Below, piece after piece: positions 1 to 10,005 of a DNA stretch of 64,000 bases (position 1 is its first letter; each line of letters starts with the position of its first letter). Under the pieces are notes generated by a model. The model was not told the origin of the DNA, did not search any database, and was given only the letters and a program-made list of their open reading frames with translations. A program made the position numbers and the translations under genes. The stretch lies in the NCBI GenBank assembly GCA_045106015.1, contig JBGCEE010000032.1, positions 1,668 through 65,667 of the forward strand. The letters run 5' to 3'. This DNA comes from Akkermansiaceae bacterium (lineage in GTDB: Bacteria; Verrucomicrobiota; Verrucomicrobiia; Verrucomicrobiales; Akkermansiaceae).

Positions 1-1131
1 GTGGCTCTGGCAGGGAGCGAGGGAGGTCTTGTCGCATGGGAACGGACGATGGCCGAGATTTTTGCCGACAACGGCTACGCAACCTCTTGTGTTGGAAAGT
101 GGCACATCGGTGCCTCTGAGGGCCGCTGGCCGACCGACCAGGGTTTCGATGAATGGATTGGACCCCCTCACAGCTATGACGAAGCTCTCTGGGCGGATGA
201 CCCGTGGTATGATCCCAAACGCGATCCGGTCGCATACATGTATGAGGGGAAAAAAGGAGAAGCTGTTAAGAAGACAATCCAACTGACAACAGAAGTCAAA
301 CGGGATCTGGACGTCACCTATCTCAAACGGAGCAAAGAGTTTATCCGTAAGAGCAAAGAGGCAGGAAAGCCCTTCTTTCTTTATTTCAATCATACCTTGA
401 TGCACCTGCCGACGATTCCGCGGAAGGAGTTTTCAGGTAAGTCAGGCCACGGTGAAAGGGCAGATTGCCTCCTCCAGCTTGATCATGACTTCGGTGTTGT
501 TCTCGATTACTTGAAGGAACTCGATCTCGACGAAAACACCATCGTCGTTTTTTCAGGAGACAACGGCCCCGAACAAATGGACCCTTGGCGGGGTTCGGCG
601 GGCCCTTGGGATGGATCGTATTTCACAGGACTCGAGGGTTCCCTCCGGACTCCTTGTATCGTCCGGTATCCCAAGGTTGTGCCGGAAGGGAAGAAAAGTA
701 ACGAAATCGTCCACATCACGGATATGTTCACGACACTCCTCAAGTGGACAGGGTTGCCGGTTCCTGACGATCGGGTAATCGATGGCATCGACCAGCGGGC
801 ATTTCTCGAAGGTAAGCAGGATCGTTCGGACCGGGACGGGTTCCCATACTGGATGGGCGAAAAAATGTATGGAGTGAAATGGCATCAATTCAAAATGGTG
901 ATGGTACTGCAGCGAAGCCTTGATGCGCCCGCTCTTAGTCTCGCCACTCCTCACATCGTGAACTTGGATGTCGATCCGAAGGAACGTCAGGCATATAATT
1001 ATCCGCATGTGCATACGTGGGTGATTGCTCATACCAGCAAGATCGCCCAAGACTTCAAAGCGAGTGTCGCAAAGGAGGAGTTGATTCCGCTCGGAGCCCC
1101 GCTTGATTTCGTTCCCAAGGTAAAACAGTGA
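1..1131 (+). CDS. Arylsulfatase / sulfatase family protein, 5' truncated by the window edge
   Basis: Open from base 1. Sulfatase motifs GKWHIG, YFNHTLMHLP, FSGDNGP and LEGSLRTPCIVRYP. The CxPxR active-site motif would lie upstream of the window. Confidence 0.92.
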   Translation: MALAGSEGGLVAWERTMAEIFADNGYATSCVGKWHIGASEGRWPTDQGFDEWIGPPHSYDEALWADDPWYDPKRDPVAYMYEGKKGEAVKKTIQLTTEVKRDLDVTYLKRSKEFIRKSKEAGKPFFLYFNHTLMHLPTIPRKEFSGKSGHGERADCLLQLDHDFGVVLDYLKELDLDENTIVVFSGDNGPEQMDPWRGSAGPWDGSYFTGLEGSLRTPCIVRYPKVVPEGKKSNEIVHITDMFTTLLKWTGLPVPDDRVIDGIDQRAFLEGKQDRSDRDGFPYWMGEKMYGVKWHQFKMVMVLQRSLDAPALSLATPHIVNLDVDPKERQAYNYPHVHTWVIAHTSKIAQDFKASVAKEELIPLGAPLDFVPKVKQ

Positions 1132-1426
1132 AAAGAACAAGACGCGGTTAATCAACTAACTGCCCGCCAAGATTTCAAAGCGCGCCTTTTGTACGAAGTG
1201 ACAGCACTTTGACTTCGCAAAATATTATAAGGAAACTATTCGGCTCTTGTCACATTAGGGATGAAAGACGTAACCCACTCAAGTTTCTGCTTCAGAGCTT
1301 TTTTCCTGATCGTCTCCAATGCTCTCGTGGCGGCCTTGGCAGTAGCCAAGAAAAATGGTGGCTGATCAGCGAATGGTTTTTTGTTTCTACTCCGCCATTC
1401 GGTTTGCTAAAGAGGTCAGCTCTAAA

Positions 1427-2221
1427 ATGAAAGTTTTCTTCACTCAACTAATCGTTACTGCTGCCACTCTTTTCGTTGTCGGTTGTGATAGGGGTGGTAG
1501 CCCAAACCTCTCCAGTGCGGTAACGTTGGGAGATGTTGGGTCTGTGAAAAGGTTTATAGCAGCCGGGGTGGATGTGAATTCTCCGGCAGACAGTCCTCCA
1601 TTATATGTCGCAACGATGTTCGCGGTAGATCTTCGAAAGGATCCTCGTCCGAACATGCAGGAGAAAGAAAAGAACTACACCAAGATTATCGAGTTACTTG
1701 TCGAGGGAGGAGCGGACCTGGATGCACGGGAAGGTGCAGGACATACGGCGTTGGCTAGAGCGGCAAAGAACGGGCATAAAGAAATCGTACAATTTTTCAT
1801 TTCCGAGGGTGCTGATGTGAATGTGTTGTTGTATGAAAACCGGACAAAAACAGCATTGGATTCGGCCTTGGCAGCGGGCGAATCTGAAATTGCCGAGATA
1901 CTCCGAAAACATGGTGGCAAGACTCGGGCAGAAATTGTGGAAGAAACGGAAGAGGGGGGTGTCGTCGAAAATCCAGATCGTGACAAAGCCGAAGCTTACT
2001 TCACTGCGCTTGGAAACGTTCAATCTGCTCAGGAAGAAGAGAAACTTCTGACCGAGTTCGGCGAGTGGTTGAAGAAAAATGACTACAAGGTCAGCGTTGA
2101 AGAAAGGGATGGAAAGTACAGACTCACTTGCTCTTCTTTTCCGCCTGTTACTCCGTGGATCGAACACACATTCTTCGATCAAAAAAATTTGGAGCGACTC
2201 CCTCGCCTTGGCGAGAAGTGA
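1427..2221 (+). CDS. Ankyrin-repeat lipoprotein with extra C-terminal domain
   Basis: ATG at 1427 gives a signal peptide and lipobox (LFVVGC). Ankyrin motifs AGVDVN..PPLYVA, GADLDAREGAGHTALARAAKNGHKEIVQFFISEGADVN and KTALDSA. The ORF track starts it at 1355. Confidence 0.85.
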   Translation: MKVFFTQLIVTAATLFVVGCDRGGSPNLSSAVTLGDVGSVKRFIAAGVDVNSPADSPPLYVATMFAVDLRKDPRPNMQEKEKNYTKIIELLVEGGADLDAREGAGHTALARAAKNGHKEIVQFFISEGADVNVLLYENRTKTALDSALAAGESEIAEILRKHGGKTRAEIVEETEEGGVVENPDRDKAEAYFTALGNVQSAQEEEKLLTEFGEWLKKNDYKVSVEERDGKYRLTCSSFPPVTPWIEHTFFDQKNLERLPRLGEK

Positions 2222-2230
2222 ACGGATCCT

Positions 2231-2265
2231 AGGACTCGTCGGTGCGGACGGATCGACGAAGTCCT
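2231..2265 (+). terminator. Hairpin downstream of the ankyrin gene (possible terminator)
   Basis: AGGACTCGTC...GACGAAGTCCT, a 10-bp stem with one bulge, 10 nt after the stop codon. No U tract. Confidence 0.35.
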
Positions 2266-2279
2266 GCCCATAAGAGTGA

Positions 2280-2563
2280 CTCTCAGAAGTTTTCGGATCT
2301 ATCGCTGAGCCTGATCAAGCACTCAAGGAAGCTTTTTGTAAGGCATGTGCTTCGGTCGCTTTGGACGATGGGTATTCAGTGACCATGAAGTTTAGGCGGG
2401 CCCTCCCGATTGTAGCCGAATACCATCGCAGGGTGATGATCTTTGCAGGTGATACACGCAGAGGGAAACTAACTGGATCGCTACCGCTTAGGATGAACTT
2501 CGGAGGTCGGGCTCACATCTTGTTATCCCTGAGGAGTCAGCCCGCAAAGAGCTGGAGAAATAA
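2280..2563 (+). pseudogene. Possible degenerate gene fragment
   Basis: Protein-like open frame from 2280 (LSEVFGSIAEPDQALKEAF...MNFGGRAHI). It reads on naturally as LVIPEESARKELEK* after a -1 shift near 2519. No convincing start. Confidence 0.25.
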
Positions 2564-2719
2564 AACAAGATCATTCAGCAAGAAGAATGGGCTTGGACGC
2601 ATCGGTTGAAGCGCTAAGTTTGGGGCCTTAACGCTTTTTCATGCGATTCCTAAGTAGGTGTCAAATGCATTGGCTAAGGACAAAAAACGAAGGACAAGCT
2701 TTATTTAACCACCAACATC

Positions 2720-2875
2720 ATGCTCCATTACGCAATTGTATTTATTATCGTCGCCCTTGTTGCGGGCGTTTTAGGTTTTGGCTCATTATCCGGAACGGCC
2801 GCACTAATCGCCAAAGTGTGCTTTGTCTTATTCTTAGTCTTCGCGGTGCTTTCTTTTCTTAAGAAGAAGGTCTGA
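2720..2875 (+). CDS. DUF1328 (UPF0391 / YtjA-like) small membrane protein, 51 aa
   Basis: Translated by hand, absent from the ORF track: [51 protein letters not shown]. Typical DUF1328 pattern (A.VLGFG...G.AA.IAK..F). Confidence 0.93.
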
Positions 2876-2955
2876 TCCGAAAGTTTAAGCGTAGCGGCAA
2901 ACCCAAACTAAGAAGTCGTATCAATCAGATAGCAGTCCACTTCATAACCGTATTT

Positions 2956-3558
2956 ATGGCCTTCTTTGCCATCATGAATCCCGTCGCCAACGCGTCGCTT
3001 TTTGTCGCGCTCACGCAAGATACTAGCTCAAAGACTCGTCAGCTGATTGCACTGCGTTCGGTGGTCGTGGCATTCGTCATTGTTCTGATTTTCTCCATCG
3101 GTGGTCGTGAAATATTTACGATTTTTGGGATCACACTGCCAGCATTCCGCATTGCTGGCGGATTGATGGTTGGTGTCATTGGCTACCACATGCTGCAAGG
3201 TGCACCATCCAGCCTCCATATGCCTGACGAACAGGATACCGAAGACACTAGTGATGCCTATCTGGACATGGCGATTACTCCGCTCGGAATTCCTGTCTTA
3301 GCTGGACCGGGAACGATCGCGACCGCAATGAACTTCGCTGCAGAATCCAGCCATCTGGAAATCATCATTGTTCTTGCTGCTTTTGGACTGATGTGTGCGG
3401 TTACTTATATCGCATTTGTCAGTGGAGAGTGGCTTTCTAAGATTCTTGGAAAAAATGGAATCAAGGTGATTTCTCGCCTCATGGGTCTCATACTCGCTGT
3501 CGTGGGTGTGCAAATGCTCATCGAGGGAGTCCGTGGTGCCGCTACAGGTTTTTCCTAA
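2956..3558 (+). CDS. MarC family integral membrane protein
   Basis: FAIMNPVAN, FGITLPAFRIAGG, AITPLGIPVLAGPGTIA and SRLMGLILAVVGVQMLIEG are MarC hallmarks. The true start may be slightly upstream. Confidence 0.93.
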   Translation: MAFFAIMNPVANASLFVALTQDTSSKTRQLIALRSVVVAFVIVLIFSIGGREIFTIFGITLPAFRIAGGLMVGVIGYHMLQGAPSSLHMPDEQDTEDTSDAYLDMAITPLGIPVLAGPGTIATAMNFAAESSHLEIIIVLAAFGLMCAVTYIAFVSGEWLSKILGKNGIKVISRLMGLILAVVGVQMLIEGVRGAATGFS

Positions 3559-3664
3559 ATGATCATGCTATAGTTCTATGAGATCGAAGCCTTCTCTTGA
3601 ACAGCGAACGCACGCTCTCAAATTGGAGATTGTTGTGAAATGAACTCTCTTTAAGGTAATTTCT

Positions 3665-4129
3665 ATGAACTCAAATTGGATAGGATTTTTTGGAATTGCC
3701 ATGATTAGTACTTTGGTTTGCGCGTTCAGCCATGCTGCGGAGGTGGCCCAACCGTCGGTGGACACGAAGCTTGAATTTAGGATGGAGCACAGCTCTGCAG
3801 GGAAGAAAGTCGGGTCGATCACTCATACTCGGAGCATCAAAGATCTGACTGGGGCTCCTCTTGTGAATACGTTCAACGGCCTAGATGGACGGTCATACAA
3901 GATGACGATCAGCTATGTGGGCTACGCAAAATTCGAGGTTTCCAAGGAAGGTAAATCGAACCAACAAAAGCCCGGCCATGTTTTTGCTGTTCAAGTTTTA
4001 TCCGGCGAAAAAGGCCTAACGATCGAAACCACTGAGAAGAATGAGACCAAGCTGTTTGTGTATGAGCAATCGCCCCAAACTTTGTATGAAGGTGAAGGAC
4101 TTACTGTGACCATAAGAAATAAAAAATAG
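3665..4129 (+). CDS. Hypothetical secreted protein
   Basis: 154-aa ORF with a Sec-type signal peptide (…AFSHA/AE) and a beta-rich mature part. No family recognised. Confidence 0.65.
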   Translation: MNSNWIGFFGIAMISTLVCAFSHAAEVAQPSVDTKLEFRMEHSSAGKKVGSITHTRSIKDLTGAPLVNTFNGLDGRSYKMTISYVGYAKFEVSKEGKSNQQKPGHVFAVQVLSGEKGLTIETTEKNETKLFVYEQSPQTLYEGEGLTVTIRNKK

Positions 4130-4206
4130 GGAATGAATCGAATGGCGATGATTTCTTATTTCGTTTCCGGTGATCTTTTGAGAAAGAAGGTATTGTGAAT
4201 CAAACG

Positions 4207-5658
4207 ATGAGATACAGTAGATTGCAGGGGTCGATCGTTGCGGCATTCGTGGTGAGTCTAGGACTTTCCGTAGGGGATGCGAGAGAAGCCGAAGACCGGC
4301 CCAATGTTGTTGTATTCTTTTTGGATGATAGCGGATACGGCGATTTTGCCCACAATGGTAATCCGACTATTCGCACCTCACAAATTTCGAAGCTCGTGCA
4401 AGACGGGATGAATTTCACCCAATTCTATGTTACTTCGCCGGCGTGCAGTGCCTCGCGATACTCACTTCTAACAGGTCGGTATCCAGGACGTTCGGGCTTG
4501 GGCACATGGGTGGTCGGACCAGATGCAAAACGTCATATTCATCCTAAAGAGATTACCCTCGCCGAAGGCTTGAGAACGCGTGGTTATAAAACTGGAATTT
4601 TCGGCAAATGGCATCTTGGAAGCCCGAACAAAAAGAATGGCGAGTCTCAAGGTACCCTGCCTTTGGCTCACGGATTTGACGAATGGTTTGGGACAAACGT
4701 TTCCCATGATTATCAGAATGCGATGTTGTTAGAATCAGATCCTAAGGGAAACGATCCAATCGAAGGTTACTCAGTGATTACAAGGAATCTACCGTCCAAG
4801 CATGATATTTGCTCAGAGCTGACGAAACGTTCCACAGATGCAGCCATTGCATTCATTGAAAAAAATAAGTCAGATCCCTTCTTCGCTTACATTCCATTCA
4901 ACATGCCTCACCTAGGAATTCACGCGAGTGAGAAGTTTCTCGGAAAGTCGCGCAGAGGTCTGCTTGGGGATGTGATGGAGGAAATCGATTACAGCGTTGG
5001 TCAAATTCGAAATGCCATTGAAGATGCTAGGCTAACCAAGAACACCCTGATCATTTTTTCTTCAGACAACGGACCGTGGATCAAATTTCAGGATACGGAG
5101 AAACACAGTAGGTATGGGGAGGCGCGCCTTCACGTTGGATATGCTCAACCGTTCCGAGATGGAAAGGGCTCCACTTGGGAAGGGGGGCATCGCGTCCCTG
5201 GGATTTTCTGCTGGCCGGGAAGTATCACTCCGAACTCCGTCGAACTCTCTCCAGCCAGCACCTTGGATATACTGCCGACGATTTTTGCACTAGCAGGTGT
5301 CGATCTTCCGAAGGATCGTTCGATTGACGGTCGTGATATCCGGCCCTACTTGATGCCACAATCCCACAAGCAAAACGTTGCGGATTTCGAATTCTACTTT
5401 TCAGCATCTGATAACAAGCCCTCTGCAGTCCGCATCGGTGCTTGGAAGATGCATACGCGTATCTCTTCTCAAACAGGAAACAACTACGGATTCGAGGCCT
5501 CTCTGAACACACCACTATTGTTTCATGTCGAACATGATCTTGGAGAGAGATTTGATCGTGCTGGAGAACAGACGAAACTCGTTGAGACGGTGCGATCGAC
5601 TTTGAGTAAGTTTCAAATTCAGATCCAGGAAGAAGGTTCTTTCTGGGATTCGAAGTAA
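4207..5658 (+). CDS. Sulfatase (Cys-type formylglycine-dependent)
   Basis: Signal peptide, RPNVVVFFLDDSGYGD, active site CSASRYSLLTGR, GKWHLG, SSDNGP, WEGGHRVP. Confidence 0.95.
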   Translation: MRYSRLQGSIVAAFVVSLGLSVGDAREAEDRPNVVVFFLDDSGYGDFAHNGNPTIRTSQISKLVQDGMNFTQFYVTSPACSASRYSLLTGRYPGRSGLGTWVVGPDAKRHIHPKEITLAEGLRTRGYKTGIFGKWHLGSPNKKNGESQGTLPLAHGFDEWFGTNVSHDYQNAMLLESDPKGNDPIEGYSVITRNLPSKHDICSELTKRSTDAAIAFIEKNKSDPFFAYIPFNMPHLGIHASEKFLGKSRRGLLGDVMEEIDYSVGQIRNAIEDARLTKNTLIIFSSDNGPWIKFQDTEKHSRYGEARLHVGYAQPFRDGKGSTWEGGHRVPGIFCWPGSITPNSVELSPASTLDILPTIFALAGVDLPKDRSIDGRDIRPYLMPQSHKQNVADFEFYFSASDNKPSAVRIGAWKMHTRISSQTGNNYGFEASLNTPLLFHVEHDLGERFDRAGEQTKLVETVRSTLSKFQIQIQEEGSFWDSK

Positions 5659-5680
5659 TATCTCTTACAGTGATCAGTCA

Positions 5681-5911
5681 ATGAGCTCAGACGTGGATAA
5701 ACCCAGAACAAATGGCGCTTGGGGAATGACTTGGGCTGCCATTTTGGATCTGATTGCTTTTGGATTTTTAATTGCCTCAGATGCGGAGTTATCATTGCTC
5801 GCACTGTTCGGAGCTTGCGAAGCAATGTTCATCTTCTTGTCAGTGAAAGCATGGAAGGACTATTTCGAAGCCTACACTCGATATGAAATTGCAAAGTCGC
5901 GAAAGGATTAG
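5681..5911 (+). CDS. Small hypothetical membrane protein
   Basis: 76 aa with two hydrophobic segments. Fills the gap between the sulfatase and the amidase (6 nt to the next ATG). Confidence 0.55.
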   Translation: MSSDVDKPRTNGAWGMTWAAILDLIAFGFLIASDAELSLLALFGACEAMFIFLSVKAWKDYFEAYTRYEIAKSRKD

Positions 5912-5917
5912 GACGAA

Positions 5918-7615
5918 ATGGCTTACGAATTGAAGCCTGTTAGATCGCCGAGGCTTAGGGGTTTGGGGCTTCGCTTATTTACCGGGCTGATAGAGAGTGC
6001 ATGGATACGCCCGATTCTGTTGCCGAGTCTTATGAAGAACATCGGGGTGACGGTGTTTCGGAAACATGTTCCGCACTCGGGACCTACGAATTTTCCCCTC
6101 GTGAAACCATTGGAACTGAAGACTCAAGTCACTGGTACTGATGCCGTTGCGGCGCTTGCTGCGGAAGTGCCGATCTCGACTTCATCTGGCTTCAGCCATT
6201 CATCGACTACCGACTACGCGAGGGCATATCGGAGCGGGAGTATGTCGCCAGTGGACGTTGCTGAGCGAATCATTGATGCAATCGGGGTTTCAAACAAAAC
6301 AGATCCACCTCTCCGAGCGATTATCAAATATGAGCCGGAAGATATACGTCGCCAAGCGAGGGAGAGCGCCGAATTTCTGGCTGGTGGGAGGCCTCGTAGT
6401 ATTCTCGAAGGTGTACCTGTCGCGATCAAGGACGAGTTAGATATGCTGCCCTACTCGACACATGTTGGCACTTCTTTCCTAGGTGAAGAGACTGCCAGTG
6501 AGGAAGCGACGGTCGTAAGTCGACTGCGTGCAGCCGGCGCGCTTCTGGTCGGAAAAACCAACATGTATGAGATTGGTATTTCTCCTACTGGGAACAATCC
6601 GATTCACGGGTTCTGTCGCAACCCGTATGATCTCAATCACGATGCAGGCGGTTCATCGGGAGGGAGTGCGGCTTCGGTAAGCAGTGGAATCGTGCCGTTG
6701 GCCATTGGTGCCGACGGAGGTGGATCCATTCGTGTGCCGTCCGCTCACTGCGGAGTGGTTGGCTTGAAGCCAACCTTCGGGCGAGTGAGTGAGTTCGGCG
6801 CCGCGCCACTTTGTTGGAGCGTTGCTCATATCGGACCGATTGGGGCTACAGCATTGGATACCGCTATTGGCTATGCGATCTGTGCAGGCAAAGACCCTAA
6901 AGATTCGATGTCTCTCGGTCAGCCTAGCGTGCGCTCATCCGATTTTCACAATCTTGATCTGAGGGGAATCACGCTGGGAATTTATCCTGCTTGGTTTGAG
7001 GACGCATCGTCGGAGATTACGGAACAATGTAAGGAAACGCTCGAGGTTCTGAAAACTGCTGGAGCCGTCATTAGAGAAATTACAATTGAGGGTCTTGAGG
7101 AGACACGCGTGGCCCATGCCATTACCACTCTAACAGAAATGGCAACGGCCATGGAGCCTCATTATGCAGAGCACCGAAAATCTTTTGCCCACCCGACGCG
7201 TATTAGTCTCGCAATCGCTCGGAGCTTCACGAGTCGTGATTATGTGCTTGCTCAACGTGTGCGCACAGAGTCGATGCGTGAGTGGGATCGTGTGCTTTCT
7301 GAAGTGGACGCGGTGATCACACCCACCACAGCTTGTGTGGCTCCGTATCTTGATCCGAGCACCCGAGGTTATGGAGAGTCTGATATGGAGACGATGACTG
7401 AGTTGATGCGATTTGTCGTGAGTGCGAATTTTTGTGGACTACCTGCCATTTCGTTTCCTGCTGGCTATAACAGTAAAGGACTTCCAGTCGGGATCCAAGC
7501 CATAGGGCGCCACTGGGAGGAGCATCTACTTCTGCGCCTAGCCAACGTTGCCGAACAGAAAGCCGACAGAAACAAGCCAAAGTCATACCACGAAATTCTT
7601 CCGCCTAGGGTGTGA
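5918..7615 (+). CDS. Amidase-signature enzyme, plant FAAH-like fatty acid amide hydrolase
   Basis: Lys-cisSer-Ser triad motifs PVAIKDE, GGSSGGS and GADGGGSIRVP. Long N-terminal extension resembling Arabidopsis FAAH (comparison from memory). Confidence 0.9.
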   Translation: MAYELKPVRSPRLRGLGLRLFTGLIESAWIRPILLPSLMKNIGVTVFRKHVPHSGPTNFPLVKPLELKTQVTGTDAVAALAAEVPISTSSGFSHSSTTDYARAYRSGSMSPVDVAERIIDAIGVSNKTDPPLRAIIKYEPEDIRRQARESAEFLAGGRPRSILEGVPVAIKDELDMLPYSTHVGTSFLGEETASEEATVVSRLRAAGALLVGKTNMYEIGISPTGNNPIHGFCRNPYDLNHDAGGSSGGSAASVSSGIVPLAIGADGGGSIRVPSAHCGVVGLKPTFGRVSEFGAAPLCWSVAHIGPIGATALDTAIGYAICAGKDPKDSMSLGQPSVRSSDFHNLDLRGITLGIYPAWFEDASSEITEQCKETLEVLKTAGAVIREITIEGLEETRVAHAITTLTEMATAMEPHYAEHRKSFAHPTRISLAIARSFTSRDYVLAQRVRTESMREWDRVLSEVDAVITPTTACVAPYLDPSTRGYGESDMETMTELMRFVVSANFCGLPAISFPAGYNSKGLPVGIQAIGRHWEEHLLLRLANVAEQKADRNKPKSYHEILPPRV

Positions 7616-7664
7616 CTTTTTACGAATTCTCATGAGTCGTAGAATAAGAAGAAGGTGTTCCTTC

Positions 7665-7715
7665 TACCGATTGAAATATCTCAAACTCATCGCTTGTAGT
7701 AATTTTCAATCGGTA
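7665..7715. promoter_or_regulatory. Perfect 12-bp inverted repeat (hairpin or paired operator)
   Basis: TACCGATTGAAA (7665-7676) and TTTCAATCGGTA (7704-7715) with a 27-nt spacer, in the amidase / DUF1111 intergenic region. Confidence 0.5.
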
Positions 7716-7855
7716 AATCGATGACGTGGATATCGAAGTGGTCTAGTTCTTTCAGAAGCTCCCACGACTCAATCTACGTTTTTTCGTGCTACGGCTCATT
7801 TTGGTAGGTATCGTTTAGCTCGCGGTTAACCATCAGGACTTTGCAATCGACTATT

Positions 7856-9766
7856 ATGTTTCAGAAACTCATTCCAAACTCTCTGGCTTTTCTATGTCTT
7901 ATTGGCGCTCCGGCAAGTGCCGGGGGATACAGTGAGATAGGCCAACGAACTGGCGCGAGTCTAGTCGATGGGGTAGCGGTTACGGAAGGGGTGATCCGCG
8001 TCCGCCGCCGACATGAGAACGACATGGATTTTTCTAAATTCAATCCCTTCTATTGGGAGGGGAGACGTGCTTGGTTCAAAGTAGAAGACCATACTTCGCG
8101 TGGAGAAAAGCGAATGGTGTTCACCTTGAGGACCGAATGGCCTCAGGACTTCACTCCCTACCGTGGATCAGATTTTTCTGCGATTTACTTAGGTGATCCG
8201 TTGGCTGACGAAACTTTACGCAGTAAGTTTGCGATCAATGTGCGAATGAAGCACGTAGAGGGATTCACACATTTCGAGGCTGAGCTTGATGAGACCGCTT
8301 TTCATCAGCATCCCGAGGCCCTCCAAAAAGGTAAATTACTGACCTTTGAGTTTCGCTTCTTCAACAACGAGGCACACCCAGGCTGGGCGAAACAGAAAAA
8401 GCGAAACCCGCACAATCTCTCCGCCTACTATTCTGAATTTTTCCGGATCAAAATCGGTGAGCCGGGACTCTACATCGACAATTTCAGTGAGGCGAACGAG
8501 TTTCCCTCCGCCAAACGATATGCGGGTGGTTGGACGACCATCCCAACGGTTCGTGTTGAGCCTTGGACCGCCTTACAGCAAAACGCATTTAATCTCAAAC
8601 CAGCGCACAACTTGGGCTTTCTTGAAGGGCGAACATGGTTCCATACCGATATGGTCAGCGGCAAACACATCAGTAACCCTTCTGATGACAAGCCTTCGGT
8701 TTTTTTCGAAGAGATGGAGAAAGCACGCCGCGGACTTGCCAGCGATACTTACAACGCCCGCTCGTGCATCGAATGTCATGTGCATAACGGGGGTGCGATT
8801 CTGCCCCCGCTTGGTGAACCGATTCACACCACGATTCTGCGCACGACGGATCCGGACTCGCCACATGGCGCCCAAATACAGACAGCAGGTGCGGGAGCCG
8901 AGGGCACGGTTACCATTGGTCGTTACGAAACTCGGAAAGTTGAGTTAGCGGACGGCACGGTCGTAGAGCTTTCCAAACCCATCTTTTACCTCGATGGCAA
9001 GCCCTCGGACGCGATCTCTCCAAGAACACCCCCTGCGATCATCGGCGCGGGCCTGCTGAGTGCCGTAACGGATGAAACTATTCTCGACCTCGCAAAGTCT
9101 TCCTCGGGAGAGCCGCGACTTATCGGAGGTAAGGTTGGGCGCTTTGGCTGGAAAGCAGATCAGCCTACGGTTTATTCACAGATACAAAGCGCGTTGCGGG
9201 AAGATATGGGGGTCAAAGAGCCAGGGTTTGAAAGTCTTGATAGGATTGAAGCCTACGTTTCCCTACTGGGCGTCCCACCACGTACAAACCCAGAAGCCCC
9301 GGAAGTATTGGCAGGTGAACGAGTTTTTCTGAGTTTAAGTTGCAACCAATGCCACACTCCGACCTTGCGGACGGGGGAGTCGAAGTTTCCAGAAATCAGC
9401 CACCAAACGATTCATCCTTTCACGGATCTTTTGTTGCACGATATGGGAGAAGGTTTGAGCGACGATCGTGGTGGGGCACTGGCTTCGAAGTGGCGGACCG
9501 CTCCACTTTGGGCACTGAAAAATAAACGCCATGCGATTCATGACCACGTTGGAACATTTCGTCCCGGCGATACCAAGGTCACCTACGTCGATACGCATTT
9601 AGAAGCTGATAAGAATCCGCTTCAGCTTCTTCATGATGGCCGAGCTCGCAGTATTGCTGAAGCTATCCTCTGGCACGGTGGTGAAGCCGAAGATTCGGTC
9701 AAGGCTTACAAGGCTTTGCCTAAGGCCGATCGCGAAGCTTTGGAGAAGTATCTATTAGATCTTTAG
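7856..9766 (+). CDS. Di-heme oxidoreductase family (DUF1111) protein with N-terminal extension
   Basis: Two CxxCH heme motifs (CIECH, CNQCH). GRFGWKA, HPFTDLLLHDMGEGL, WRTAPLW, LLHDGRARSIAEAILWHGGEA. Signal peptide present. Confidence 0.9.
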   Translation: MFQKLIPNSLAFLCLIGAPASAGGYSEIGQRTGASLVDGVAVTEGVIRVRRRHENDMDFSKFNPFYWEGRRAWFKVEDHTSRGEKRMVFTLRTEWPQDFTPYRGSDFSAIYLGDPLADETLRSKFAINVRMKHVEGFTHFEAELDETAFHQHPEALQKGKLLTFEFRFFNNEAHPGWAKQKKRNPHNLSAYYSEFFRIKIGEPGLYIDNFSEANEFPSAKRYAGGWTTIPTVRVEPWTALQQNAFNLKPAHNLGFLEGRTWFHTDMVSGKHISNPSDDKPSVFFEEMEKARRGLASDTYNARSCIECHVHNGGAILPPLGEPIHTTILRTTDPDSPHGAQIQTAGAGAEGTVTIGRYETRKVELADGTVVELSKPIFYLDGKPSDAISPRTPPAIIGAGLLSAVTDETILDLAKSSSGEPRLIGGKVGRFGWKADQPTVYSQIQSALREDMGVKEPGFESLDRIEAYVSLLGVPPRTNPEAPEVLAGERVFLSLSCNQCHTPTLRTGESKFPEISHQTIHPFTDLLLHDMGEGLSDDRGGALASKWRTAPLWALKNKRHAIHDHVGTFRPGDTKVTYVDTHLEADKNPLQLLHDGRARSIAEAILWHGGEAEDSVKAYKALPKADREALEKYLLDL

Positions 9767-9797
9767 TAGATACCTTGCGAAGAAGGTTCTGGATCGA

Positions 9798-9950
9798 ATG
9801 GCTCAGGAATACTTTGGGGATGAAAGACGAATGGGAAAGAAGGAGGTATCTCCTGAGATTCAAGAGTTGTTCGAGCAAGTGCCCAAGCTTTTCGTCACAA
9901 AGAAGGTAGATCCTGCCGCCGGCATCGAGCCGAAGCCTGAGCATAAGTGA
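9798..9950 (+). pseudogene. Possible small ORF or C-terminal gene remnant (50 aa)
   Basis: MAQEYFGDERRMGKKEVSPEIQELFEQVPKLFVTKKVDPAAGIEPKPEHK*. The frame is also open upstream to 9759 without a start. Confidence 0.3.
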
Positions 9951-10005
9951 TCGCTGCTTTTCAGACTTCATTCCTTTTGCATCTGTGTTACGAACTAGAT
10001 GCAGA

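What the first reader, a model, noticed from the sequence alone, without database searches (positions are those of the whole stretch)
5918..7615. Plant-type fatty acid amide hydrolase in a bacterium
Seen: the amidase triad plus an extension YELKPVRSPRLRGLGLRLFTGLIES, and DYARAYRSG, TELMRFVVSAN and C-terminal KPKSYHEIL. From memory, these track Arabidopsis FAAH closely (YKAETMKAPHLTGLSFKLFVNLLE, DYAYAYRSK, TDLMRFVLAAN, KPAIFYDIL). Plant FAAH hydrolyses N-acylethanolamines and N-acyl-homoserine lactones (established). Inference: this enzyme may degrade algal lipid amides or quench quorum signals, and it may inform the bacterial origin of the plant FAAH clade.
Basis: partly seen in the sequence, partly recalled or inferred. 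Interest (0 to 1): 0.55.

Follow-up and report, generated by a model that had tools for sequence, protein, structure and literature searches.

The report
Bacterial relative of plant lipid-amide hydrolase
This gene from an uncultured verrucomicrobial bacterium encodes an intact enzyme of the same family as the plant enzyme (FAAH) that breaks down fatty-acid amide signals. It belongs to a large, unstudied bacterial and archaeal branch of that family, so it is a real but moderately interesting find whose substrate is still unknown.

Summary
ORF 5918-7615 (+) encodes a 565-aa amidase-signature enzyme. Its best solved relative by far is Arabidopsis FAAH: 371 bits against 197 for GatA, Z 51.5, rmsd 2.0 A over 555 residues.

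Only AtFAAH matches the first 92 residues, which form the plant enzyme's membrane-binding cap. A profile built from bacterial N-termini alone finds AtFAAH at E 1.5e-8; the next hit is at 0.67.

The Lys-Ser-Ser triad (K171/S246/S270) is intact. In trees the protein sits with eukaryotic FAAH-type proteins and apart from GatA and generic amidases (100/91 support).

It is not a plant gene that strayed into a bacterium. It belongs to a patchy prokaryotic branch: Chloroflexota, Marinimicrobia, Myxococcota, some Verrucomicrobiota and Poseidoniales archaea. I found the gene in 0 of 51 sampled species of its own genus and in 8 of 300 of its family.

The tree draws eukaryotic FAAH inside prokaryotic diversity, but the alternative is not rejected (AU p 0.37).

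The most likely function is a cytoplasmic-face, membrane-associated fatty-acyl amide hydrolase. The substrate (NAE, AHL or other) is untested, and the gene's neighbours give no clue.

The scan's first stage flagged the same kind of gene in another genome (e1-5316014), and that note has no follow-up. Novelty: new member of a known kind.

The parts
5918..7615 (+). CDS of a 565-aa AtFAAH-type amidase-signature enzyme (P0001)
   Evidence: ORF list and translation; Pfam Amidase PF01425, E 3e-97; best PDB relative is Arabidopsis FAAH at 371 bits; AF2 model pLDDT 91.
5910..5913 (+). Shine-Dalgarno-like AGGA, 4 nt before the ATG at 5918
   Evidence: Read directly from the sequence. Together with N-terminal conservation, it supports the long start over the database gene call that begins at GTG 6101.
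5918..6193 (+). N-terminal extension (res 1-92). Predicted helices 15-26, 31-42 and 44-48 are the counterpart of the AtFAAH alpha1/alpha2 membrane-binding cap; a low-confidence linker follows (res ~60-90).
   Evidence: Aligned to AtFAAH res 20-75. Profile-only search gives E 1.5e-8 to AtFAAH alone. VIA-align superposes model 1..562 on chain 18..605, whereas every other AS enzyme aligns only from model res ~93. The region is absent from outgroup amidases. 19 of 37 residues in 12-48 are hydrophobic and there is no TM segment.
6296..7534 (+). Amidase-signature catalytic domain (res 127-539)
   Evidence: Pfam PF01425, profile positions 12-445 of 445.
6428..6430 (+). Catalytic Lys171 (AtFAAH K205)
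   Evidence: Invariant in all 66 aligned sequences. Mapped through the alignment; AtFAAH triad numbering from PMC7033180.
6653..6655 (+). cis-Ser246 of the triad (AtFAAH S281), in the GGSSGG motif
   Evidence: Invariant; alignment.
6725..6727 (+). Nucleophile Ser270 (AtFAAH S305)
   Evidence: Invariant; alignment.
7382..7417 (+). Res 489-500 (DMETMTELMRFV): counterpart of the AtFAAH helix region 531-537 ('squeeze and lock') plus the family-specific MRF motif
   Evidence: Gap-free alignment to AtFAAH NIQVTTDLMRFV. M497/R498/F499 are conserved in the bacterial, archaeal and eukaryotic FAAH-type rows but not in the outgroups. The role of the helix is taken from PMC10169808.

Best explanation
The gene encodes an intact prokaryotic member of the AtFAAH-type ('plant-type') fatty acid amide hydrolase family. 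It has an amidase-signature core with a Lys171/cis-Ser246/Ser270 triad. On top of that core sits an N-terminal pair of amphipathic helices which, in Arabidopsis FAAH, form the membrane-binding cap and the entrance for lipid substrates. Because there is no signal peptide or transmembrane segment, the enzyme most likely sits on the cytoplasmic face of the inner membrane. There it would pull fatty-acyl amides with a small polar head group out of the bilayer and attack the amide carbonyl with Ser270. The amine head group would be released to the cytosol and the fatty acid to the membrane. Shown here: family membership, an intact active site, conservation of the N-terminal cap, and a fold that matches AtFAAH along its whole length. 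Inferred: membrane association, a lipid amide substrate, and the physiological role. The gene is monocistronic, sits in a variable sulfatase-rich region, and is an accessory gene with a patchy distribution, probably acquired by transfer among bacteria.
For: Sequence: AtFAAH scores 371 bits (E 8e-110) over res 3-561, against 197 bits for GatA and about 91 for mammalian FAAH-1. No NCBIfam amidase model reaches its cut-off (best 282 against 506; gatA 266 against 481). Fold: AF2 pLDDT 91.2. Foldseek gives TM 0.93 to 6dhv against 0.75 or less for other AS enzymes. VIA-align gives Z 51.5, rmsd 2.0 A, 555 residues, model 1..562, while all other AS enzymes align only from res ~93. N-terminal cap: a profile of bacterial N-termini finds only AtFAAH in the PDB (E 1.5e-8). 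Y3/P11/L13/G15 are invariant across the bacterial clade, and the region aligns to archaeal and eukaryotic members but is missing in the outgroups. Active site: K171/S246/S270 are invariant. The family-specific G220, G267 and MRF(497-499) are shared with eukaryotic FAAHs and differ in the outgroups. Tree: FAAH-type versus generic amidases/GatA is split at UFBoot 100 / SH-aLRT 91 and in 100% of bootstrap trees; SH-aLRT is 93 under the mixture model. Named eukaryotic members of the sister groups include Selaginella 'fatty acid amide hydrolase', Chlorokybus, and a Lobosphaera lipid-body protein. AtFAAH is a proven NAE and AHL hydrolase (PDB 6dii and 8ey1 titles; PMC10169808). The genome has a separate true GatA (583 bits against a cut-off of 481).
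Against: There are no biochemical data for any prokaryotic member, and I found no paper on this clade. Identity to AtFAAH is only 36%. Several positions corresponding to pocket residues that PMC10169808 reports for Medicago MtFAAH1 (my transfer to AtFAAH numbering through the alignment) differ from AtFAAH: A265 for T300, W300 for G335, A303 for E338, A434 for F476. Substrate preference may therefore differ; W at 300 is the state PMC10169808 reports for Medicago FAAH2a, which prefers short or aromatic acylamides. Genomic context in Verrucomicrobiota gives no functional partner. The genome has no EutB and no S1P-lyase homolog, so the fate of the amine product is unexplained. Membrane binding is inferred only from 19 of 37 hydrophobic residues and from homology.
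Confidence: 0.62

Rival explanations
1. It is a generic soluble amidase, GatA-like or AtzE/indoleacetamide-hydrolase-like, that acts on small non-lipid amides. On this view the resemblance to plant FAAH is only the shared amidase signature.
For: The best NCBIfam hits are generic amidase, AtzE, GatA and IAM-hydrolase models (E 1e-77 to 1e-84). Public annotations call its relatives 'amidase' or 'GatA family amidase'.
Against: All those models score far below their cut-offs. The N-terminal extension, absent from those families, is independently homologous to AtFAAH. The tree separates the two groups at 100/91. A true GatA is encoded elsewhere in the genome.
Confidence: 0.12
2. It is a ceramidase-like or amino-alcohol-lipid amidase that feeds a long-chain-base or amino-alcohol degradation route, rather than an NAE or AHL hydrolase.
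For: In Chloroflexota loci L093 and L097 the ortholog (about 50% identical to the query) lies in a tight co-oriented cluster: Zn-ADH, FGGY kinase, sphingosine-1-phosphate-lyase homolog (669 bits to StSPL 3mad), then the FAAH-type gene. The kinase-lyase pair is itself a conserved module in 6 of 7 Chloroflexota SPL loci examined.
Against: Only 2 of 8 FAAH-positive Chloroflexota genomes have the strong SPL homolog. The window's genome has no SPL homolog (92.6% complete) and no such neighbours. I know of no AtFAAH-type enzyme shown to cleave ceramide.
Confidence: 0.12
3. It was acquired recently and directly from a eukaryote, such as an algal host or prey, by horizontal transfer. That would make it literally a plant or algal gene in a bacterium.
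For: The closest solved structure and the nearest ESM Atlas clusters are eukaryotic and streptophyte. The organism is sulfatase-rich and so plausibly associated with algae.
Against: Its nearest relatives are bacterial at 50-75% identity, against 36-45% to eukaryotes. It sits in a 100/100-supported bacterial subclade inside a 24-row group that is bacterial except for one Diphylleia row. G+C is ordinary for the window.
Confidence: 0.03

Closest known systems
Arabidopsis thaliana FAAH (AtFAAH; PDB 6DHV, 6DII, 8EY1) and the plant FAAH1/FAAH2 groups
   Same: Same architecture along the whole length: N-terminal alpha1/alpha2 cap plus AS core (Z 51.5, rmsd 2.0 A, 555 residues). Same triad (K205/S281/S305 corresponds to K171/S246/S270). 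Conserved 'T-D/E-LMRFV' helix region, and the C-terminus aligns to within 3 residues. Same clade relative to other amidases.
   Different: 36% identity. About 40 residues shorter, mainly in the linker between the cap and the core. Several pocket positions differ: A265, W300, A303, A401, A434, M490, M493. W300 is the state PMC10169808 reports for Medicago FAAH2a rather than FAAH1, while positions 401/434/490, which I aligned to the three Tyr sites that shorten the FAAH2a channel, carry small or hydrophobic residues instead of Tyr. Prokaryotic host, and no known NAE signalling context.
Other eukaryotic AtFAAH-type enzymes (Physcomitrella PpFAAH1, Dictyostelium FAAH, Medicago MtFAAH1/2a)
   Same: According to the literature these are NAE or anandamide hydrolases of the same family (PMC7033180, PMC3412733, PMC10169808). 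Uncharacterised eukaryotic homologs from Chlorokybus and Clastostelium are 44-45% identical to the query from residue 3 onward.
   Different: They are eukaryotic, typically 600-630 aa. The published phylogenies I read contain no prokaryotic sequences (0 occurrences of 'bacteri' or 'prokaryot').
Mammalian FAAH-1 (rat, PDB 1MT5)
   Same: Amidase-signature fold, Ser-Ser-Lys triad, lipid amide substrates.
   Different: Only about 91 bits, and only over res 160-300. Its membrane cap is built from alpha18/alpha19 with an N-terminal TM helix, not from N-terminal alpha1/alpha2 (PMC7033180). It is a different subfamily.
GatA (Asp/Glu-tRNA amidotransferase subunit A) and generic bacterial AS amidases (AtzE, biuret hydrolase, peptide amidase)
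   Same: Same catalytic core, about 28-30% identity, Z 41-46 over res ~93-557.
   Different: They lack the N-terminal 92-residue cap. The query scores below every curated cut-off. It is separated from them in the tree at 100/91. The genome encodes a genuine GatA elsewhere.

Membership tests
AtFAAH-type (plant-type) fatty acid amide hydrolase family | Amidase-signature domain with an intact Lys / cis-Ser / Ser triad (AtFAAH K205/S281/S305) | tested here: met
   PF01425 E 3e-97. K171/S246/S270 align to the AtFAAH triad and are invariant in 66 rows.
AtFAAH-type (plant-type) fatty acid amide hydrolase family | N-terminal alpha1/alpha2 extension that forms the membrane-binding cap and membrane access channel | tested here: met
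   Sequence homology of the extension alone: E 0.013 for the single sequence and E 1.5e-8 for the profile, with AtFAAH the only PDB hit. The model superposes from residue 1 on chain residue 18. Helices 15-26, 31-42 and 44-48 have pLDDT about 90. Actual membrane binding was not tested.
AtFAAH-type (plant-type) fatty acid amide hydrolase family | Whole-length fold match to the AtFAAH crystal structure, better than to other AS enzymes | tested here: met
   Foldseek TM 0.93 against 0.75 or less. VIA-align Z 51.5 over 555 residues against Z 46.5 or less over 456 residues or fewer.
   The split has UFBoot 100 / SH-aLRT 91 and appears in 100% of bootstrap trees; SH-aLRT 93 under LG+C20. AtFAAH itself was not in the tree because no sequence id was available. 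Selaginella FAAH (P0273) and Chlorokybus (P0129) served as the plant anchors.
AtFAAH-type (plant-type) fatty acid amide hydrolase family | Helix region 531-537 used in 'squeeze and lock' substrate capture | tested here: inconclusive
   The region aligns without gaps, and the following LMRFV is conserved. The acyl-contact residues differ, however (I532 to M490, T535 to M493), and the dynamics cannot be tested.
AtFAAH-type (plant-type) fatty acid amide hydrolase family | Hydrolysis of N-acylethanolamines and N-acyl-homoserine lactones | not testable with these tools
   Needs an enzyme assay. No characterised prokaryotic member was found in the literature held.
GatA (TIGR00132) | Score above the curated equivalog cut-off (481.1 bits) | tested here: not met
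   265.6 bits. The genome's real GatA on another contig scores 582.6.
Mammalian FAAH-1 type | N-terminal TM helix, alpha18/alpha19 membrane cap, and close sequence similarity over the full AS domain | tested here: not met
   About 91 bits, restricted to res 160-300. No TM segment (max 19-residue Kyte-Doolittle mean 1.28). The cap is N-terminal, as in AtFAAH.

The most novel reading that the evidence does not exclude
Prokaryotes carry an ancient AtFAAH-type monotopic lipid-amide hydrolase that predates, and gave rise to, the eukaryotic NAE-degrading FAAH. It acts on endogenous bacterial lipid amides. In some Chloroflexota it is wired into an undescribed operon with an FGGY-family kinase and a sphingosine-1-phosphate-lyase homolog. 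That would make it the entry step of a bacterial pathway that de-acylates a ceramide-like or NAE-like lipid, phosphorylates the freed amino alcohol and cleaves it.
Probability: 0.2. Interest if true: 0.65.

Novelty: new member of a known kind. Interest (0 to 1): 0.4.

Why it matters
The papers I could read describe FAAH as a eukaryotic enzyme of lipid signalling (PMC10169808 calls it 'widely conserved in eukaryotes'), and the FAAH phylogeny I checked (PMC7033180) contains no prokaryotic sequences. This gene shows that bacteria and archaea hold a sizeable, uncharacterised branch of the plant-type family that keeps the membrane cap and the active site. It matters in three ways. First, these proteins are easily expressed candidates for new lipid-amide or quorum-quenching hydrolases. 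Second, the branch gives an outgroup and a possible ancestor for the eukaryotic FAAH family. Third, it raises the question of which lipid amides bacteria themselves make or meet. Cultured carriers exist: a Corallococcus terminator strain has a homolog (L012). The practical lesson for annotation is small but real: the gene call in the assembly cuts off the 61 N-terminal residues that define the family.

Tried and rejected
Context came from genome contigs and genome-search loci instead.
- The AtFAAH structure paper (PMC6509493) is not held. Residue roles were taken second-hand from PMC10169808 and PMC7033180.
- AtFAAH, Dictyostelium FAAH and mammalian FAAH could not be put in the tree because no protein ids were available.
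- The careful mixture-model tree did not finish in 864 s on one CPU. I report the quick LG+C20 tree and the careful LG+G4 tree.
- The synteny test in five same-genus genomes was uninformative. The flanking sulfatase has only about 40%-identical paralogs there, and the downstream di-haem protein was not found.
- The 76-aa upstream ORF (5681-5911) has no counterpart in any related locus, so it is not counted as part of the feature.
- A sphingosine-1-phosphate lyase link was considered for the window's gene and rejected, because the genome has no homolog. An ethanolamine ammonia-lyase link was rejected for the same reason: no EutB.
- The metagenome-contig scan returned only 4 loci, none of them close.
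- Three cluster-member runs gave taxon names for only some clades.
- A signal-peptide or Tat reading of the Arg-rich N-terminus was rejected. The region is homologous to the AtFAAH helices and packs on the core at pLDDT about 90.
Full report
**What is there.** The window has a single open frame at 5918..7615 on the + strand, 565 aa. The Arabidopsis strings recalled from memory agree with the sequence of PDB 6dhv as HMMER printed it. Pfam finds one domain, Amidase PF01425, at residues 127-539 (E 3e-97). No curated NCBIfam amidase model reaches its cut-off: the best scores 282 bits against 506, and gatA scores 266 against 481.

**Start of the gene.** The assembly's own gene call (P0002) is 504 aa and starts at a GTG 61 codons downstream. 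Three things show that ATG 5918 is the real start:
- N-terminal residues Y3, P11, L13 and G15 are invariant in 20 relatives.
- Homologs cover 99% of the query.
- An AGGA lies 4 nt upstream of the ATG.

**Is the likeness to plant FAAH real?** Yes, by four independent lines of evidence.
1. Sequence. Against all solved structures, Arabidopsis FAAH scores 371 bits (E 8e-110) over residues 3-561. GatA reaches 197 bits. Mammalian FAAH-1 reaches about 91 bits, and only over residues 160-300.
2. The N-terminal extension alone. Residues 1-92 hit only AtFAAH in the PDB (E 0.013). A profile made from 13 bacterial N-termini (A2) hits only AtFAAH at E 1.5e-8, aligned 2-74 to 19-92; the next hit has E 0.67.
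3. Fold. An AlphaFold2 model built on a 20-sequence alignment has mean pLDDT 91.2. Foldseek ranks AtFAAH chains first, at TM 0.93 and 36% identity, and other amidase-signature enzymes at 0.75 or below. VIA-align gives Z 51.5 and rmsd 2.0 A over 555 residues, model 1..562 on chain 18..605. Every other amidase aligns only from model residue ~93 onward.
4. Phylogeny. The set had 66 sequences: 31 bacterial, 1 archaeal and 21 eukaryotic FAAH-type proteins, plus 12 generic amidases and the genome's own GatA. The FAAH-type proteins are split from the rest with UFBoot 100 / SH-aLRT 91, and in 100% of bootstrap trees (LG+G4). Under LG+C20 the SH-aLRT is 93.

**Active site and pocket.** Through the alignment, the AtFAAH triad K205/S281/S305 (numbering from PMC7033180) maps to K171/S246/S270. 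All three are invariant in the 66 rows.

Several positions separate the FAAH-type rows from the outgroups:
- G220 is Ala in 11 of 13 outgroup rows.
- G267 is Thr in 12 of 13 outgroup rows.
- Position 303 is Asp in 12 of 13 outgroup rows and mostly Ala or Gly in the family.
- The MRF motif at 497-499 is family-specific.

PMC10169808 names pocket residues for Medicago MtFAAH1. I transferred these to AtFAAH numbering through the alignment, and the query differs from AtFAAH at these positions:

| Query | AtFAAH |
|---|---|
| A265 | T300 |
| W300 | G335 |
| A303 | E338 |
| A401 | V442 |
| A434 | F476 |
| M490 | I532 |
| M493 | T535 |

Trp at 300 is the state that paper reports for Medicago FAAH2a, where it narrows the cytosolic channel. 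The three positions that are Tyr in FAAH2a, and shorten its acyl channel, are small or hydrophobic here. This suggests a long hydrophobic acyl channel with a tighter head-group exit, but that is inference from an alignment.

**Location in the cell.** Residues 12-48 have 19 of 37 hydrophobic residues in predicted helices. There is no transmembrane segment (maximum 19-residue hydropathy 1.28) and no signal peptide. The region is homologous to the AtFAAH cap, which has 21 of 34 hydrophobic residues (PMC7033180). The likely picture is a monotopic enzyme on the cytoplasmic face of the membrane. That weakens the idea that it attacks external algal material directly. Membrane-permeant amides such as AHLs or NAEs remain possible substrates.

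**What family branch is it?** It is not a lone plant-like gene. The protein search returns same-length relatives at 50-75% identity, named only 'amidase'. They come from Akkermansiaceae and Verrucomicrobia MAGs (68%) and from Chloroflexota/Anaerolineae (51-52%).

Species genomes holding a full-length relative with the extension include:
- Chloroflexota, Anaerolinea, Caldilineae and Roseiflexaceae
- Neomarinimicrobiota
- Corallococcus terminator
- a deltaproteobacterial MAG
- Poseidoniales archaea

Bit scores drop sharply between these relatives (319-544) and generic amidases that lack the extension (276 or less). The 600-630-aa sequences in the representative search are eukaryotic: Chlorokybus, Selaginella 'fatty acid amide hydrolase', a Lobosphaera lipid-body protein, Clastostelium, Pythium, Powellomyces and Lapot. 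The query is 45% identical to the Chlorokybus protein and 38% to the Selaginella one.

**Distribution.** The gene is patchy.

| Group sampled | Genomes with the gene |
|---|---|
| Own genus, (samples may overlap) | 0 of 24; 0 of 51 |
| Other families of the order | 0 of 16 |
| Even sample of the phylum | 0 of 400 |
| Own family | 8 of 300, in three other genera, at 47-72% identity |
| Chloroflexota sample | 7 of 300 |

The query lies in a 100/100-supported subclade with those verrucomicrobial-type sequences, inside a 24-row group that is bacterial apart from one Diphylleia row. G+C is unremarkable. The simplest reading is an accessory gene spread among bacteria by transfer.

**Direction of evolution.** Rooted on other amidases, the basal branches are archaeal and bacterial, and the eukaryotes fall in a crown group with the query's bacterial group (82/96). 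This fits a prokaryotic origin of eukaryotic FAAH. However, holding all prokaryotic members together costs only 11 log-likelihood units and is not rejected (AU p 0.37). The question stays open.

**Context.** The gene stands alone, with 259 bp to the upstream sulfatase and 225 bp to a downstream di-haem oxidoreductase. No convincing promoter or terminator signal rose above shuffles. In five other verrucomicrobial loci only sulfatases recur nearby. The genome has a genuine GatA elsewhere, no S1P-lyase homolog and no EutB.

**A lead from relatives.** In Chloroflexota loci L093 and L097 the ortholog ends a tight co-oriented cluster: Zn-alcohol dehydrogenase, FGGY kinase, then a PLP enzyme that scores 669 bits to Symbiobacterium sphingosine-1-phosphate lyase. 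The kinase-lyase pair is itself adjacent in 6 of 7 Chloroflexota SPL loci examined. Only 2 of 8 FAAH-positive genomes carry the strong SPL homolog, against 7 of 293 FAAH-negative ones. This hints that in some lineages the freed amine is an amino alcohol that is then phosphorylated and cleaved. It does not extend to the window's organism.

**Literature.** The FAAH papers I could read treat the family as eukaryotic. PMC7033180 has no occurrence of 'bacteri' or 'prokaryot'. Searches for bacterial FAAH homologs found nothing on this clade. The scan's first stage noted the same kind of gene in another genome (e1-5316014), and that note has no follow-up.

**Verdict.** The functional and evolutionary inferences are plausible but untested. 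It is a new, uncharacterised prokaryotic member of a known enzyme kind, of moderate interest.

Noticed in passing
L097:3564-10667 (-) and L093:5137-10708 (+); also L115, L118, L119, L120: In Chloroflexota an FGGY-family kinase sits directly upstream of a strong sphingosine-1-phosphate-lyase homolog (669 bits to PDB 3mad), often with overlapping or abutting stops and starts, in 6 of 7 SPL loci examined. In two genomes this pair is flanked by a Zn-alcohol dehydrogenase and the FAAH-type amidase. It may be an undescribed route for breaking down amino-alcohol or long-chain-base lipids.
   Followed up: partly
window 5681-5911 (+): A 76-aa ORF with two hydrophobic stretches ends 6 nt before the amidase start codon. 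It has no counterpart in any related locus (tblastn), so its reality is doubtful.
   Followed up: partly
window 5918-6100 (+): The public gene call for this protein (P0002, 504 aa) starts at GTG 6101. It therefore omits the 61 N-terminal residues that carry the family-defining membrane cap, which is an annotation error.
   Followed up: yes
P0133 (Diphylleia rotans transcriptome): One eukaryotic homolog (540 aa) groups with the bacterial clade rather than with the other eukaryotes in all trees. It could be bacterial contamination of the transcriptome or a separate transfer.
   Followed up: no
P0212 (Candidatus Poseidoniales archaeon, 548 aa): Marine Group II archaea carry a homolog with the same N-terminal extension. 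It branches at the base of the FAAH-type family.
   Followed up: partly
window 1-10000: The surroundings look like a variable region: two sulfatases (1-1131, 4195-5658), an ankyrin-repeat protein (1355-2221), a MarC membrane protein (2956-3558) and a di-haem oxidoreductase (7841-9766). The di-haem protein was not found in five same-genus genomes.
   Followed up: partly
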